Of a stretch of DNA of 38,083 nucleotides, positions 5,773-14,311 are shown piece after piece. The notes below the pieces were generated by a model. It did no database searches. It saw only the letters and a list, made by a program, of their open reading frames with translations, and had not been told where the DNA came from. The DNA comes from a virus (Duplodnaviria > Heunggongvirae > Uroviricota > Caudoviricetes): positions 1 to 38,083 of IMG/VR virus record IMGVR_UViG_2913192161_000003. One strand, written 5' to 3'. Position 1 is the first letter of the stretch. The number at the start of each line of letters is the position of its first letter. The translations under genes and the position numbers were made by a program.

Positions 5773-6109
5773 AATCCTCTTGGCCTTATCGCGGCGAACG
5801 GAACGGTTAATACAAGACTTCTGCGCTAATGGGCGGTGGATAGCCGCCGTTCATAACTGAGCGTCCTCTGAGAAGCCGCTGAGGTATGAAAAAAGCCGCA
5901 TTGGGCTGCTTGTGTTGAAATCCTTTGTGGTGCGGTGCAGGGATGCTTATCTTCCCAGTTACTGTCTGGCAGCTGCATTTCACCGCACTACAAAACATTC
6001 CAGATTGTTGCCGGGGTATTTATCCATGCCCGGCGCATGGTTTCCTTGCTTTCCACAGACAAAGGAAATTGCTGAATTGGCTATTCCACAGGCAATTAAG
6101 GAATGATTA

Positions 6110-6337
6110 ATGAGCACTAGTACGCTGAAAATTCACTGCCCCGATTGCGGAAGTGAACTCATCAAGAGACCCGACGATTTCGACTTTGATAGTAATTTCG
6201 TGGATGTATCCTGTGCTGATTGCGGGAGGAACATAACGAAGGACGACGTTATCGAACAGGCCACTAAGGCTGTCAAGAAGCAGGTCGATGACATGCTGCG
6301 GAAGACCTTCAAAGGACACGGATGGAAGTTTAAGTAG
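6110..6337 (+). CDS. Small zinc-ribbon protein (CPDCG-N20-CADCG)
   Basis: 75 aa with two CxDCG motifs; AAGGAA RBS 8 nt upstream; opposite in orientation to the early-left operon. Confidence 0.55.
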   Translation: MSTSTLKIHCPDCGSELIKRPDDFDFDSNFVDVSCADCGRNITKDDVIEQATKAVKKQVDDMLRKTFKGHGWKFK

Positions 6338-6799
6338 CTTTATGGCTTCCTCCATTTTCTGAACTGCCTCTCTGGCGTCGAGCGTGAGCATCATCGGCGC
6401 CCTTATAACATCTCCCATATCTCACCTCTCTGTCGTTACCCGCTGATGCGGGAGAAATGCTTTGGTGCTGACTCCCCACAAGGAAGCAGGGAAGGCCGTC
6501 GTCGCCTTGGTGAGCCATTAACTCACCAACTAGCTGATAACCGTCTGCCAGCCCAAAACATTCCCTGTATTGGTCAGCGTCAACTCCCTGCCAGTGTTGC
6601 CCGTTCTCACGCCGTTCTCGCTCTCGCGCGGGGATATTCTCTCACCGACCGGATCGCACCCGGTGATACAGCACGTTTACGTGTAGGGGTCTTAACCGGT
6701 CATTGACGCTGTAAATCTGCATGTTGTTAAAAAGCAGGCGACTTGCTGTCCGCCGCTGGCTAACTTCGCTCAGCTGTCGATGTTTCGTTTCGATAGGCT

Positions 6800-6905
6800 A
6801 ATAATAGCTATGGCGATTATCGTAGTCAATCGCTTAAACGATATTAATGATAGGTAAGGCGATAAATGTGTGATTGATATGGCGATTTTTAATTAAAATT
6901 ATTTA
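6800..6905. promoter_or_regulatory. Operator-like repeat cluster (OL-like) and putative promoter upstream of the 6943 gene
   Basis: Three same-orientation GGCGAT half-sites (about 6811, 6857, 6882) and a near-palindrome ATCGCTTAAACGAT (about 6828-6841), matching the half-site of the OR palindromes at 8057-8097; TTGATA (6874-6879) as a possible -35. Confidence 0.45.
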
Positions 6906-6942
6906 CGTGGTAATCTGTTTTTTTCGGTGAAGGAGTGAATAA

Positions 6943-7317
6943 ATGGAACTTCAAGAGTGGGTTGATAGGTTGCGGTGGCTGAGCCATGAACAGATCGTTC
7001 AAGTTCATTTCGGGCTTCAGGAAGAGATTAAGAAATATTACAAACTGAGGGATGAAGCTAATAATCTTGCGCGCGCTGAGCATCTGTGTGAGCAAATGAT
7101 TGCTCTTTCAGAATTGGCATTTCCGGCGCTGAAGAGGGCTCATGATAAAAGAGTAGAAGAATATGAGTCGTTAACTGGCAACAAGTACCCGAGCGAATTC
7201 TATCCGCCATCACACTATGGATTTTCTCAGTTAGTGGTGATCTTGAAGAAAAGAAAGGATTACAAGCGGATTGAAGAACTTCGTGAAAAGATGATTAAAG
7301 AGGGGTGGAGGTGCTAA
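6943..7317 (+). CDS. Hypothetical helical protein (124 aa), AT-rich cargo gene convergent on cI
   Basis: Strong RBS GAAGGAG upstream of ATG; lower GC than flanks; sits where rexAB lie in lambda but on the opposite strand; followed by hairpin GCCCGG-TAA-CCGGGC (7318-7332). Confidence 0.6.
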   Translation: MELQEWVDRLRWLSHEQIVQVHFGLQEEIKKYYKLRDEANNLARAEHLCEQMIALSELAFPALKRAHDKRVEEYESLTGNKYPSEFYPPSHYGFSQLVVILKKRKDYKRIEELREKMIKEGWRC

Positions 7318-7331
7318 GCCCGGTAACCGGG

Positions 7332-8024
7332 CTATGCGAATCTTTTATAATCTATCGACTGTCGTAAAAGCACTCTTGCCATTACATAGAACTGGTCTTC
7401 ATCACCAGGCTCAACATACCACTTCTCGTAAATAGGGTTATCAGAGATTACAGCCAGGCGGTCACGCTGCATCTGAAGTCGCTTGACGTGTAATGTTTTA
7501 CCAAAAGCAAAGACATAAACGCCATCACTGTCGAATGCAGTGACGCCGATATCAACAAAGATTTGGTCTCCCGGAGAAATTGTTCCATCCATGCTGTCAC
7601 CGCTAACTGTGATGACCTTTATATTTTCAGCTGGGCGGTTACCGAACAGAGAGCGCGCTTGCTCAGATGTGTATTCAATAGCTCTAATGGTTTCAATGAA
7701 ATCGCTGGTAACTAAGGCACCCGGGCCCGCACTGGCTTTAACGTCGAGAACATCCACGCGATAGATCCCACTGTTTGGCTTTCTAACCTTGTATAGTGTA
7801 GGGGATTCATTTGCGCTACCGGCAAACATTTCACCTTCGCCAGTAGACAGCCATTCCGGACGCACACCGAGAACCGATGCAATTTCTACAGTTTTGCGTG
7901 AGCTGCTCGCACCATTCAATAGCTTATTAACGCTGGATTGCGCCATCCCTACAGCTTTTGCGAGCCTGCCCTGCGTATATCCTGCGGAAGACATCGCATG
8001 CGCTAAGCGCTCAGAGAATTCCAT
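7332..8024 (-). CDS. cI: CI-like prophage repressor (HTH + S24 LexA-like peptidase domain)
   Basis: N-terminal HTH (QGRLAKAVGMAQSSVNKLL), C-terminal S24 motifs (SGDSM serine, downstream lysine); divergent from the Cro-like gene; start taken at ATG 8024 (track begins on GTG 8030). Confidence 0.85.
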   Translation of the reverse strand: MEFSERLAHAMSSAGYTQGRLAKAVGMAQSSVNKLLNGASSSRKTVEIASVLGVRPEWLSTGEGEMFAGSANESPTLYKVRKPNSGIYRVDVLDVKASAGPGALVTSDFIETIRAIEYTSEQARSLFGNRPAENIKVITVSGDSMDGTISPGDQIFVDIGVTAFDSDGVYVFAFGKTLHVKRLQMQRDRLAVISDNPIYEKWYVEPGDEDQFYVMARVLLRQSIDYKRFA

Positions 8025-8056
8025 ACACACCCCTTAAAAACACTTTCTTTAATCCT

Positions 8057-8097
8057 ATCGCCTATGCGATTATTTAGCAAAAAATCGCATAGGCGAT
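8057..8097. promoter_or_regulatory. OR-like operators: two 14-bp palindromes ATCGC-N4-GCGAT
   Basis: ATCGCCTATGCGAT (8057-8070) and ATCGCATAGGCGAT (8084-8097), 27 bp centre to centre, in the cI/cro divergent intergenic region. Confidence 0.6.
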
Positions 8098-8125
8098 TGA
8101 CATTCGCCAGGGTGATAATCATAAT
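8097..8125 (+). promoter_or_regulatory. Putative PR promoter for the Cro-like gene
   Basis: -35 TTGACA (8097-8102), 17-bp spacer, -10 CATAAT (8120-8125); the -35 abuts the second operator. Confidence 0.55.
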
Positions 8126-8152
8126 CGCTTAAAATTGATAGTTGAGGTGATT

Positions 8153-8383
8153 ATGAAAAACCCCGCAGTAGAAAAGGCGATTGCCATTGCTGGCAGCCAG
8201 AAAGAGCTGGCGAAACGTTGTGGGAAGGCCCAATCAACGATCTGTGACTGGCTGAATGGCAAGAAGCGAATTTCGCCAGTCCATGTGCTCGACCTTGTTA
8301 ATGCGGTTGATGGGGAGATTAAGGCTTACGAGTTTCGTCCAGATCTCCCAGCAATTTTTCCGCATCCGGGCTCCATCGCCTGA
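8153..8383 (+). CDS. cro: Cro-like HTH regulator
   Basis: ORF 8135..8383; start taken at ATG 8153 (MKNPAVEKAI) after GAGGTG RBS; HTH segment (QKELAKRCGKAQSTICDWLNGKK). Confidence 0.7.
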   Translation: MKNPAVEKAIAIAGSQKELAKRCGKAQSTICDWLNGKKRISPVHVLDLVNAVDGEIKAYEFRPDLPAIFPHPGSIA

Positions 8384-8481: not shown

Positions 8482-9024
8482 ATGCAATCACTTACGTATC
8501 AACAGAGTACCGGAATACACAGCAGCGTGCTGATAAATCGCGCTCAACCGGAACCGGACAATAATCATGAGTTGATCCGCGCGGCGGTTCGCGGCTGGTC
8601 AGCTGCTATCGACAATCAGGACGTGGTGTCAGCGCTCATCATCAACGAATATCGGGAGCAGGGCGGGACTGCTATCAGCTTCCCGGAAGACATCAGCCGG
8701 GCGCGCCAGAAGCTCTTTCGCTTCCTGGATAACCGCTTCGACTCCGAGCAGTACCGAGAAAACGTGCGGAAACTGACTCCAGCAATCATGGCTGTTCTGC
8801 CGCTGGAATATCGGGAAAAGTTGATGCCGGAAGATAGCCTAATGGCTCGTCTGGTACGCATGGAGAAGGAAACCAGCGAAGCGAAAATTGCCGTCGCAAT
8901 GGATGCGCCACGGCATCAGAAGCTGAAAGAACTGAGCGAGGGGATTGTGGAGATGTACCGCGTTGACCCTGGCTTAACCGGTCCGCTGATGGAAATGGTT
9001 CAAATGATGTTGGGGGTTGTATGA
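8482..9024 (+). CDS. CII-like phage regulatory protein (CP76-like), tentative
   Basis: 180-aa ORF between cro and the replication genes; family by recall and position only. Confidence 0.45.
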   Translation: MQSLTYQQSTGIHSSVLINRAQPEPDNNHELIRAAVRGWSAAIDNQDVVSALIINEYREQGGTAISFPEDISRARQKLFRFLDNRFDSEQYRENVRKLTPAIMAVLPLEYREKLMPEDSLMARLVRMEKETSEAKIAVAMDAPRHQKLKELSEGIVEMYRVDPGLTGPLMEMVQMMLGVV

Positions 9025-14219: not shown

Positions 14220-14283
14220 CTTATATTTCATGTAAATCTGATATCGTCGCCATAGCTTTGGTTGTCGACCGAATTACAAAAAT
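14220..14283 (+). promoter_or_regulatory. Putative late promoter / Q-utilisation region
   Basis: Positional inference only (between the Q stop and the first terminator); exact -35/-10 not resolved. Confidence 0.3.
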
Positions 14284-14311
14284 AGCCCCAGTTAATCGCT
14301 GGGGCTTTTTC
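14284..14311 (+). terminator. Rho-independent terminator (tR-prime-like)
   Basis: Stem AGCCCC/GGGGCT with 11-nt loop followed by TTTTT. Confidence 0.7.

What the first reader, a model, noticed from the sequence alone, without database searches (positions are those of the whole stretch)
6780..7335. Cargo gene convergent on cI, preceded by repressor-operator-like repeats
The 124-aa helical protein at 6943-7317 occupies the cI-proximal slot where lambda carries rexAB, a classic defence locus, but on the opposite strand. It has its own strong RBS and a bidirectional-looking hairpin shared with the cI stop. The 120 bp upstream contain at least three same-orientation GGCGAT half-sites and a near-palindrome ATCGCTTAAACGAT, the same half-site as the OR palindromes at 8057-8097. 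This suggests the gene is wired into the immunity circuit by CI or Cro. No function is recognisable from sequence.
Basis: partly seen in the sequence, partly recalled or inferred. Interest (0 to 1): 0.65.

Follow-up and report, generated by a model that had tools for sequence, protein, structure and literature searches.

The report
Prophage OL operators plus unknown cargo gene
The repeats are the left operator set (OL) of a phi80-like prophage and mainly control the leftward early promoter, while the 124-aa gene beside them is a real but uncharacterised helical-repeat accessory gene in the repressor-adjacent hotspot where phages often keep host-protecting genes.

Summary
The interpretation needs re-centring.

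**The repeats are OL.** The repeats at 6804-6886 are the left operator cluster of a phi80-like lambdoid prophage of Escherichia sp. E10V10. They overlap a strong minus-strand promoter, pL (TTGACT-17-TATTAT, 6829..6801). This pL lies at the same aligned positions as the annotated phi80 pL and OL. It fires away from the gene, into a nutL leader almost identical to that of phi80.

**ORF124 (6943-7317) is a real gene.**
- It is under strong purifying selection.
- It was convergent on the same cI/cro immunity type wherever the flanking DNA was recovered (about 26 related loci).
- Its confident model is a small all-helical TPR-like fold.
- It is the short form of a very large uncharacterised ~200-aa family. 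Erwinia, Yersinia and Serratia prophages place that family directly downstream of cI, on the same strand.

**Promoter.** A conserved extended -10 element (TGgTAATCT, 6908-6916) lies about 24 bp from the distal OL operator, in a pRM-like geometry.

**Best reading.** This is an accessory gene coupled to the lysogenic state, and its product acts by binding other proteins. The sign of CI control and the biochemical function are unproven.

The finding is ordinary in kind and moderately interesting as a family.

The parts
6560..6795 (-). pL leader / nutL region, near-identical to phi80 and HK225. The boxA-like GCTTTTTAA lies at 6728-6736 and the 'nutL core' CACGTTTACGTG at 6672-6683.
   Evidence: alignment. 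One search gives the phi80 nutL annotation, mapped by ungapped alignment. Homology ends at about 6795, at the -10 of pL.
6801..6829 (-). pL, the leftward early promoter: TTGACT (6829..6824), 17-nt spacer, TATTAT (6806..6801).
   Evidence: 10 of 12 consensus matches. It falls in the same alignment columns as the annotated phi80 pL -10 and -35. It is invariant or conservatively changed in relatives.
6804..6817 (.). OL1 operator ATAGCTATGGCGAT, lying over the spacer and -10 of pL.
   Evidence: 9 of 10 half-site matches. Invariant half-sites. Equivalent in position to the phi80 CI operator at L001 3102-3120.
6829..6842 (.). OL2 operator ATCGCTTAAACGAT, abutting the -35 of pL.
   Evidence: Equivalent in position to the phi80 operator at L001 3125-3143.
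6850..6863 (.). Possible extra weak operator ATAGGTAAGGCGAT.
   Evidence: 8 of 10 matches. It is poorly conserved in relatives (GCGAT, GTGAT or GCTAT, with a variable left half). phi80 has no operator at this position.
6873..6886 (.). Distal OL operator ATTGATATGGCGAT (OL3-equivalent), next to the gene's promoter.
   Evidence: 8 of 10 matches. ATTGnTAnnGCGAT is invariant in relatives. Equivalent in position to the phi80 operator at L001 3168-3187.
6908..6916 (+). Candidate promoter of ORF124: extended -10 element TGgTAATCT, with a predicted start near 6923.
   Evidence: Read from the sequence. TGnTAnnnT is kept in 26 of 27 related loci, mostly as TGGTATGCT. phi80 and HK225 carry TGATATGCT in the equivalent place. 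No transcript data exist.
6874..6902 (+). Alternative candidate promoter TTGATA-17-AATTAT, whose -35 lies inside the distal operator.
   Evidence: 9 of 12 consensus matches. In 25 of 27 relatives the -10 reads ATTTAT and lacks the A at position 2, so this promoter is less conserved.
6930..6935 (+). Shine-Dalgarno AAGGAG, 7 nt before the ATG.
6943..7317 (+). ORF124: 124-aa all-helical TPR-like protein (phrog_22434; identical to WP_130257726.1).
7317..7333 (.). GC-rich hairpin AGCCCGG-TAA-CCGGGCT holding both stop codons. It may be a weak bidirectional terminator or a 3' end stabiliser.
   Evidence: It was not called a terminator because no U-run follows it.
7332..8024 (-). cI repressor, 230 aa from the ATG at 8024, with HTH and S24 peptidase domains.
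8052..8080 (-). Candidate pRM: TTGCTA-17-TAGGAT.
   Evidence: Read from the sequence and conserved as TAGAGT in relatives. This is inference; it scored below the scan threshold.
8057..8116 (.). OR operators: OR3 8057-8070, OR2 8084-8097, OR1 8103-8116.
8097..8125 (+). pR: TTGACA-17-CATAAT.
   Evidence: 11 of 12 consensus matches.
8153..8383 (+). Cro-like repressor (YdaS-type HTH).

Best explanation
The window carries the immunity module of a phi80-like lambdoid prophage.

Shown:
- The GGCGAT/ATCGC repeats at 6804-6886 are the OL operators. Their first job is to let CI (and Cro) shut off pL, a strong minus-strand promoter (6829..6801) that transcribes leftward into a phi80-type nutL leader.
- ORF124 (6943-7317) is a genuine accessory ('moron') gene lodged between OL and the 3' end of cI, and it is inherited as part of this immunity type.
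- It encodes a small TPR-like helical-repeat protein with no catalytic domain of known type.
- It is the short form of a very widespread ~200-aa family. Other temperate phages place that family directly inside repressor operons, downstream of cI or of an Arc/Mnt-like repressor.

Inferred:
- The gene is transcribed rightward from a conserved extended -10 promoter (6908-6916).
- The weak -35 region of that promoter abuts the distal OL operator, much as OR2 abuts pRM. CI bound there in the lysogen would then permit or stimulate expression.
- The protein would therefore be made in the lysogenic state and act by binding a host or incoming-phage protein, through the conserved His22/Tyr33/Arg36/Cys49/His91 surface. 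The benefit would go to the lysogen, for example exclusion, defence or host modulation.
- The GC hairpin containing both stop codons separates or stabilises the two convergent transcripts.
For: OL and pL:
- Window 6560-6795 is almost identical to the phi80 and HK225 nutL leader, and homology stops at the pL -10.
- The phi80 records place the 'O-L region', three CI operators and pL at exactly the equivalent positions.
- The promoter scan finds TTGACT-17-TATTAT on the minus strand.
- The operator cluster is non-random, and its half-sites are invariant across relatives while the centres vary, as at OR.

Real gene:
- Substitutions by codon position are 12/10/67, against relatives 76% identical in DNA and 85% in protein.
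- Every related locus with recovered flanks has the same ORF124 -> <- cI, cro order, while the outer flanks differ.

Fold and family:
- The AF2 model has pLDDT 94 and six helices.
- The protein aligns to the C-terminal domain of ~200-aa proteins. That family has 1795 representatives at 50% identity clustering.
- H22, Y33, R36, C49, P89, H91, G93 and W122 are 94-98% conserved.

Link to lysogeny:
- The long form lies 12-23 bp downstream of cI on the same strand in Erwinia phage 49 and in Yersinia and Serratia prophages, which carry different cI types.
- A 132-aa short form overlaps the stop of an Arc-like RHH gene that is divergent from a Bro-N gene.

Promoter:
- TGnTAnnnT is kept in 26 of 27 loci.
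- phi80 and HK225 have TGATATGCT plus a small rightward ORF at the same place beside their own OL.

Other:
- ORF124 is 43% GC against 51% for the window.
- The cI-to-N interval is a documented hotspot for lysogen-expressed defence genes such as rexAB and bstA (PMC8585504).
Against: - There are no transcription data. The promoter is a consensus prediction, its -10 in the window (TAATCT) is weak, and the predicted start falls in a T-run.
- A second candidate promoter (TTGATA-17-AATTAT) would have its -35 inside the distal operator and would be repressed by CI, not activated.
- The operator-to-promoter spacing differs by about 2 bp from my pRM assignment, and that pRM is itself only predicted.
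- There is no hit to any PADLOC defence model and no significant Foldseek match to a solved structure.
- Most long-form relatives in genomes (Shewanella, Patescibacteria and others) are not next to repressors. The family's function is therefore not phage-specific.
- The short form lacks the N-terminal domain of the long form and might work differently.
Confidence: 0.55

Rival explanations
1. ORF124 is an early lytic gene repressed by CI. Its promoter is TTGATA-17-AATTAT, whose -35 lies inside the distal OL operator. It would therefore be silent in the lysogen and switched on together with pL and pR at induction or infection. Because the hairpin is a poor terminator, read-through would run antisense into cI and help commit the phage to lysis. 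The protein would act early, for example against a host defence or a host regulator.
For: - The promoter scan finds this promoter (9 of 12 consensus matches) with its -35 at 6874-6879, inside operator 6873-6886.
- The conserved TTGnTA inside the operator looks like a -35 hexamer.
- The hairpin has no U-run on the plus strand.
- The gene is convergent on cI.
Against: - The -10 of this promoter reads ATTTAT in 25 of 27 relatives, lacking the near-essential A at position 2. The extended -10 further downstream is conserved in 26 of 27.
- Family members in four other phage lineages are placed inside repressor operons, which are lysogen-expressed.
Confidence: 0.25
2. ORF124 is a dedicated regulator of the immunity switch itself. 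It would be, for instance, a TPR-type protein that binds CI, RecA or a protease and tunes repressor stability or induction. That would explain why it is inherited strictly with this cI/cro type.
For: - It is strictly linked to one immunity type in every related locus with recovered flanks, and its divergence (81-85% aa) parallels that of cI and cro.
- Long-form relatives lie immediately next to cI in other phages.
Against: - The family accompanies at least four unrelated repressor types, including an Arc/Mnt-type RHH, and mostly occurs in genomes with no repressor nearby. This argues against a specific repressor partner.
- Linkage follows simply from lying inside the immunity module, between OL and OR.
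- CI here has its own S24 self-cleavage domain, so no anti-repressor is needed.
Confidence: 0.12
3. The ORF is a chance open frame or a decaying remnant, and the repeats are chance matches.
For: - The protein has no Pfam or NCBIfam family.
- Whole-window motif counts are near chance.
Against: - Third-position substitution bias is strong (12/10/67).
- The protein matches phrog_22434 at E = 7e-38 and gives a confident fold prediction.
- The gene has a strong Shine-Dalgarno sequence.
- The operator cluster was never reached in 1000 simulations.
- The cluster coincides in position with the phi80 OL.
Confidence: 0.02

Closest known systems
OL/pL region of phage phi80, and of lambdoid phages generally
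   Same: - There are several copies of the same inverted-repeat operator as at OR.
- They overlap a leftward sigma-70 promoter that reads into nutL and the early-left operon.
- The positions of the -10, the -35 and three operators coincide column for column with the annotated phi80 features.
- The mosaic joint lies exactly at the pL -10.
   Different: - The operator sequence is ATCGC-N4-GCGAT, so this is a different immunity specificity. The CI proteins share only about 23% identity.
- There may be a fourth weak site at 6850-6863.
Lambda rexAB, BTP1 bstA and phi80 gene 40A: accessory genes in the cI-to-pL interval
   Same: They occupy the same interval between the repressor gene and OL/pL. This interval is a documented hotspot of mosaic diversity holding lysogen-expressed genes that protect the host (PMC8585504).
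   Different: - Those genes lie on the cI strand and share pRM. ORF124 is on the opposite strand with its own promoter.
- There is no sequence or model similarity to RexA/B or to any PADLOC family.
- No defence phenotype is known for ORF124.
HK225_042 and the unannotated 69-aa ORF of phi80 (L001 3243-3452)
   Same: - Each is a small rightward ORF immediately to the right of OL, convergent on the cI operon.
- Each is preceded by an extended -10 element (TGATATGCT) and a Shine-Dalgarno sequence.
- In phi80 a GC-rich palindrome follows the ORF's stop.
   Different: The protein is unrelated: 69 aa against a 124-aa TPR-like protein. Only the slot and promoter layout are shared.
The ~200-aa 'tetratricopeptide repeat protein' family, e.g. 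Erwinia phage vB_EhrS_49 gp51 (YP_009824001.1) and Yersinia WP_145507614.1
   Same: - It is homologous over ORF124 residues ~16-122 (29-40% identity).
- It carries the same invariant H, Y, R, C, PSHxG and W positions.
- In phages it lies in the same cI-to-N interval.
   Different: - The long form has an extra ~85-aa N-terminal domain (GYxGLxDWW motif) and a C-terminal DWxxRIxRC tail.
- It sits on the cI strand, 12-23 bp after cI.
- ORF124 is the truncated single-domain version on the opposite strand.

Membership tests
Lambdoid OL/pL operator-promoter region | Multiple copies of the same operator motif as at OR, clustered within about 100 bp | tested here: met
   There are four sites with at most 2 mismatches in 6804-6886, against three in 8057-8116. 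A cluster of 4 was never reached in 1000 simulations.
Lambdoid OL/pL operator-promoter region | The operators overlap a sigma-70 promoter that points away from cI toward nutL/N | tested here: met
   TTGACT-17-TATTAT lies on the minus strand at 6829..6801. Downstream is a leader almost identical to the phi80 nutL.
Lambdoid OL/pL operator-promoter region | Positional equivalence to an OL annotated in a characterised relative | tested here: met
   The phi80 'O-L region' (X13065 1139-1230) begins exactly where homology to the window ends. The pL hexamers fall in the same columns.
Lambdoid OL/pL operator-promoter region | CI and Cro bind the sites and repress pL | not testable with these tools
   This needs EMSA, footprinting or reporter assays.
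Moron / lysogenic-conversion gene | Autonomous unit with its own promoter and terminator, inserted between conserved phage genes, often with atypical composition | tested here: inconclusive
   - The gene has its own Shine-Dalgarno sequence and a conserved candidate extended -10.
- The hairpin lacks a U-run.
- GC is 43% against 51% for the window.
- phi80 and HK225 carry different cargo in the same slot.
Moron / lysogenic-conversion gene | Expressed from the repressed prophage | not testable with these tools
   There is only indirect support: relatives lie in repressor operons.
Tetratricopeptide-repeat (TPR) proteins | Match to a Pfam TPR model at the curated threshold | tested here: not met
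   - ORF124 has no Pfam family.
- All 10 long-form relatives in the alignment match TPR_1 (best E = 5.7e-6), over a single repeat only.
Tetratricopeptide-repeat (TPR) proteins | Helix-turn-helix repeat fold | tested here: met
Known anti-phage defence systems (RexAB, Abi and others; PADLOC-DB) | Sequence match to a defence-protein model | tested here: not met
   None of the 15 family members in alignment A2 matched a PADLOC family. One long-form relative lies between a Mko/PDC-S37-like helicase and AbiEii, which is context only.
phrog_22434 | Significant full-length match to the PHROG profile | tested here: met
   E = 7e-38 over residues 1-122. The family has no assigned function.

The most novel reading that the evidence does not exclude
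Two linked readings remain open.
- ORF124 and its ~200-aa relatives may be an unrecognised, very widespread protein family. It has an invariant His/Tyr/Arg/Cys/His site on a TPR-like scaffold. Temperate phages have repeatedly captured it into repressor operons (cI, Mnt-like) as a new kind of lysogen-expressed protective or host-modulating factor.
- phi80-like immunity regions may carry a second, pRM-like promoter at the distal OL operator that depends on CI and drives exchangeable cargo genes rightward.
Probability: 0.25. Interest if true: 0.6.

Novelty: new member of a known kind. Interest (0 to 1): 0.35.

Why it matters
- The result corrects a tempting misreading. Repeats upstream of a cargo gene are, first of all, the phage's own OL/pL control region.
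- It defines the operator consensus (ATCGC-N4-GCGAT) and the promoter map of an immunity type common in Enterobacter and cryptic Escherichia prophages.
- It flags a large, entirely uncharacterised protein family that sits next to repressor genes in several phage lineages. rexAB and bstA were found in that same place. The family is therefore a reasonable candidate for a phage-challenge screen.
- The conserved rightward promoter beside OL, also present but unannotated in phi80 and HK225, would be a small addition to the classical lambdoid switch if CI controls it.

Tried and rejected
- Pfam and NCBIfam gave nothing for ORF124. PADLOC gave nothing for ORF124 or for the other 14 family members in the alignment.
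- Foldseek against the PDB gave no match with E <= 0.001. A profile search of PDB sequences gave only sub-threshold TPR matches. BFVD returned only unannotated members of the same family. The AFDB library was unavailable.
- I considered a four-ligand zinc site (H22, C49, H91 and the C-terminal Cys). I rejected it because only about half of the family keeps the tail Cys. Model coordinates could not be inspected.
- No LexA box lies upstream of ORF124 (read from the sequence).
- Rfam and tRNA scans found nothing in the region.
- Megablast against E. coli complete genomes and phage records found only the nutL leader or weak cI/cro similarity, never the ORF.
- A full-text search on DUF4236, a recurrent neighbour and fusion partner of the long form, gave one unrelated paper.
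- dS between the window and its relatives is saturated, so only codon-position counts are reported.
Full report
**1. What is in the sequence**

The region lies in a lambdoid immunity module.
- cI: 7332-8024 on the minus strand, with HTH and S24 peptidase domains.
- A YdaS-type cro: 8153-8383.
- A YdaT-type gene at the cII position: 8482-9024.
- ORF124: 6943-7317 on the plus strand. It starts at an ATG right after an in-frame TAA, with AAGGAG 7 nt upstream.

- GGCGAT occurs at 6812, 6858 and 6881.
- ATCGCTTAAACGAT lies at 6829-6842.
- The perfect ATCGC-N4-GCGAT palindromes lie at 8057-8070 and 8084-8097.

The motif is not over-represented in the window as a whole (32 matches, 24 +/- 5 expected). 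Its clustering is what stands out.
- Four sites fall in 83 bp at 6804-6886, and three fall at 8057-8116.
- A cluster of four in 90 bp never appeared in 1000 Markov simulations.

The hairpin at 7317-7333 folds as described and contains both stop codons.

**2. The repeats are OL, and they sit on pL**

A megablast of 6700-7340 hit phi80 and HK225 only over the first ~100 bases.
- The alignment shows that window 6560-6795 is almost identical to the phi80 and HK225 pL leader. This stretch includes the annotated nutL boxA and core.
- Similarity ends abruptly at ~6795.
- In the phi80 records the next features are the 'O-L region' (X13065 1139-1230) and three CI operators overlapping pL.

The promoter scan independently finds TTGACT-17-TATTAT on the minus strand at 6829..6801.
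- Its hexamers fall in the same alignment columns as the phi80 pL -35 and -10.
- Sites 6804-6817, 6829-6842 and 6873-6886 fall where the three phi80 operators lie.
- Site 6850-6863 has no phi80 counterpart and is poorly conserved in relatives.

Across 18 distinct upstream sequences from related prophages, the half-sites and the pL hexamers are invariant while the operator centres vary. The three OR operators show the same pattern.

So the repeats are the left operator set of this immunity type. Their primary target is a promoter that fires away from ORF124.

**3. ORF124 is a real gene and part of the immunity module**

- The protein is identical to WP_130257726.1, a hypothetical protein of Escherichia sp. 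E10V10.
- It matches phrog_22434 at E = 7e-38.
- Homologues with 81-98% identity occur in cryptic Escherichia and Enterobacter prophages and in IMG/VR contigs.
- Every such locus with recovered flanks shows ORF124 convergent on the same cI type, followed by the same cro. The genes further left and right differ.
- Against relatives ~76% identical in DNA, substitutions fall 12/10/67 by codon position. That is strong purifying selection.
- The gene is 43% GC in a 51% GC window.

**4. The protein**

AlphaFold2 gives a confident six-helix model with pLDDT 94.
- Foldseek finds nothing significant in the PDB.
- In BFVD, Foldseek finds only unannotated relatives.

By sequence, ORF124 aligns to the C-terminal half of ~200-aa 'tetratricopeptide repeat proteins'.
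- A profile search finds 1795 representatives at 50% clustering, 1104 of them below 1e-10.
- They range from Shewanella to Patescibacteria.
- H22, Y33, R36, C49, P89, H91, G93 and W122 are 94-98% conserved across 168 sequences. That is more than a plain scaffold needs, and it suggests a specific binding or active site.
- A four-ligand zinc site was considered and dropped, because only about half of the family keeps the tail Cys.
- There is no PADLOC, Pfam or NCBIfam family.

**5. Where relatives sit**

- In Erwinia phage 49, and in Yersinia and Serratia prophages with different cI types, the long form lies 12-23 bp downstream of cI on the same strand. This is the rexAB/bstA position.
- In IMG/VR contig L034, a 132-aa short form overlaps the stop codon of an Arc-like RHH gene. 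That gene is divergent from a Bro-N gene, a layout reminiscent of P22 mnt/ant (the P22 comparison is from my own knowledge).
- In L011, a long form lies between a Mko/PDC-S37-like helicase and AbiEii, overlapping the latter by 4 bp.
- Many genomic copies have no repressor nearby. Several follow a DUF4236 protein or are fused to one.

Within phages, then, the family is repeatedly tied to genes expressed in the lysogen. Its function is not phage-specific.

**6. How ORF124 is probably expressed**

Two plus-strand promoters are possible.
- **Option A.** The scan's TTGATA-17-AATTAT (6874-6902) has its -35 inside the distal operator. Its -10 becomes ATTTAT in 25 of 27 relatives.
- **Option B.** An extended -10, TGgTAATCT (6908-6916), is kept as TGnTAnnnT in 26 of 27 loci.

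phi80 and HK225 also have TGATATGCT, followed by a small rightward ORF, at the corresponding place beside their own OL.

With the extended -10, the distal operator ends 24 bp before the hexamer. Its centre is then about -43.5 from the predicted start. OR2 ends 26 bp before my predicted pRM -10.

I therefore infer a pRM-like arrangement in which CI at the distal OL site permits or stimulates transcription. The opposite sign, repression through Option A, cannot be excluded.

The hairpin is conserved with variable loops but has no U-run. It is at best a weak bidirectional terminator or a 3' end stabiliser.

**7. Comparison and verdict**

- The operator and promoter layout is a textbook lambdoid OL/pL of a different specificity.
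- The slot is the known cI-to-N hotspot (PMC8585504).
- The rightward-gene layout is shared with phi80 and HK225.
- The cargo protein belongs to a large, uncharacterised TPR-like family.

The finding is a new member of known kinds. Interest is moderate, and it rests on the unexplored protein family and on the possible CI-dependent promoter at OL.

Noticed in passing
window 6107-6418: Two ORFs overlap antisense at the position where phi80 has N. One is a 103-aa minus-strand ORF, the one called in the related genome L004. The other is a 75-aa plus-strand CxxC...CxxC zinc-ribbon ORF (6110-6337) with its own AAGGA and a phrog_4852 hit at 2.9e-8. Which one is expressed is unclear. No phi80-N homologue was found in the window.
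   Followed up: partly
window 6737-6754 (minus strand): A terminator-like hairpin GGCGGACAGCAAGTCGCC followed by TGCTTTTTAA lies about 40-65 nt downstream of the predicted pL start. Its U-run overlaps the boxA annotated in phi80. It may be an early attenuator in the pL leader.
   Followed up: no
L001 3243-3452 (phi80 JX871397 33348-33557): phi80 has an unannotated 69-aa rightward ORF just right of OL. It has AAAGGAG, an extended -10 TGATATGCT, and a GC-rich palindrome after its stop, just before the 3' end of gene 40A. It occupies the slot annotated as HK225_042 in HK225.
   Followed up: partly
L006 6001-6645: The same prophage that carries a normal 124-aa copy next to cI also encodes a 214-aa chimera (P0005). 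Its first ~93 residues are ORF124-like and are fused to a TraR/DksA C4 zinc finger in the early-left region.
   Followed up: no
L011 447-8834: A long-form family member sits between a 1516-aa SF1 helicase (matching PADLOC PDC-S37/MkoC/MkoA) and an AbiEii protein, overlapping AbiEii by 4 bp. This is the place normally held by the AbiEi antitoxin. A PDC-S18 gene lies nearby.
   Followed up: partly
L061, L065 and L070 (upstream neighbours); P0053: A DUF4236 protein of about 375-380 aa often lies directly before the long form, confirmed by Pfam in L061 and by near-identical N-termini in L065 and L070. In P0053 the long form is fused to DUF4236. This may be a two-gene module of unknown function.
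   Followed up: partly
window 8127-8142: A further conserved ATCGC half-site (ATCGCTTAAAATTGAT) lies just downstream of the pR -10, in the cro leader. Its left half is invariant in relatives. It might be a fourth right-hand operator.
   Followed up: no
window 14231-14307 (+): Rfam match to isrJ, an Hfq-binding sRNA: 47.2 bits against a gathering score of 37.
   Followed up: no
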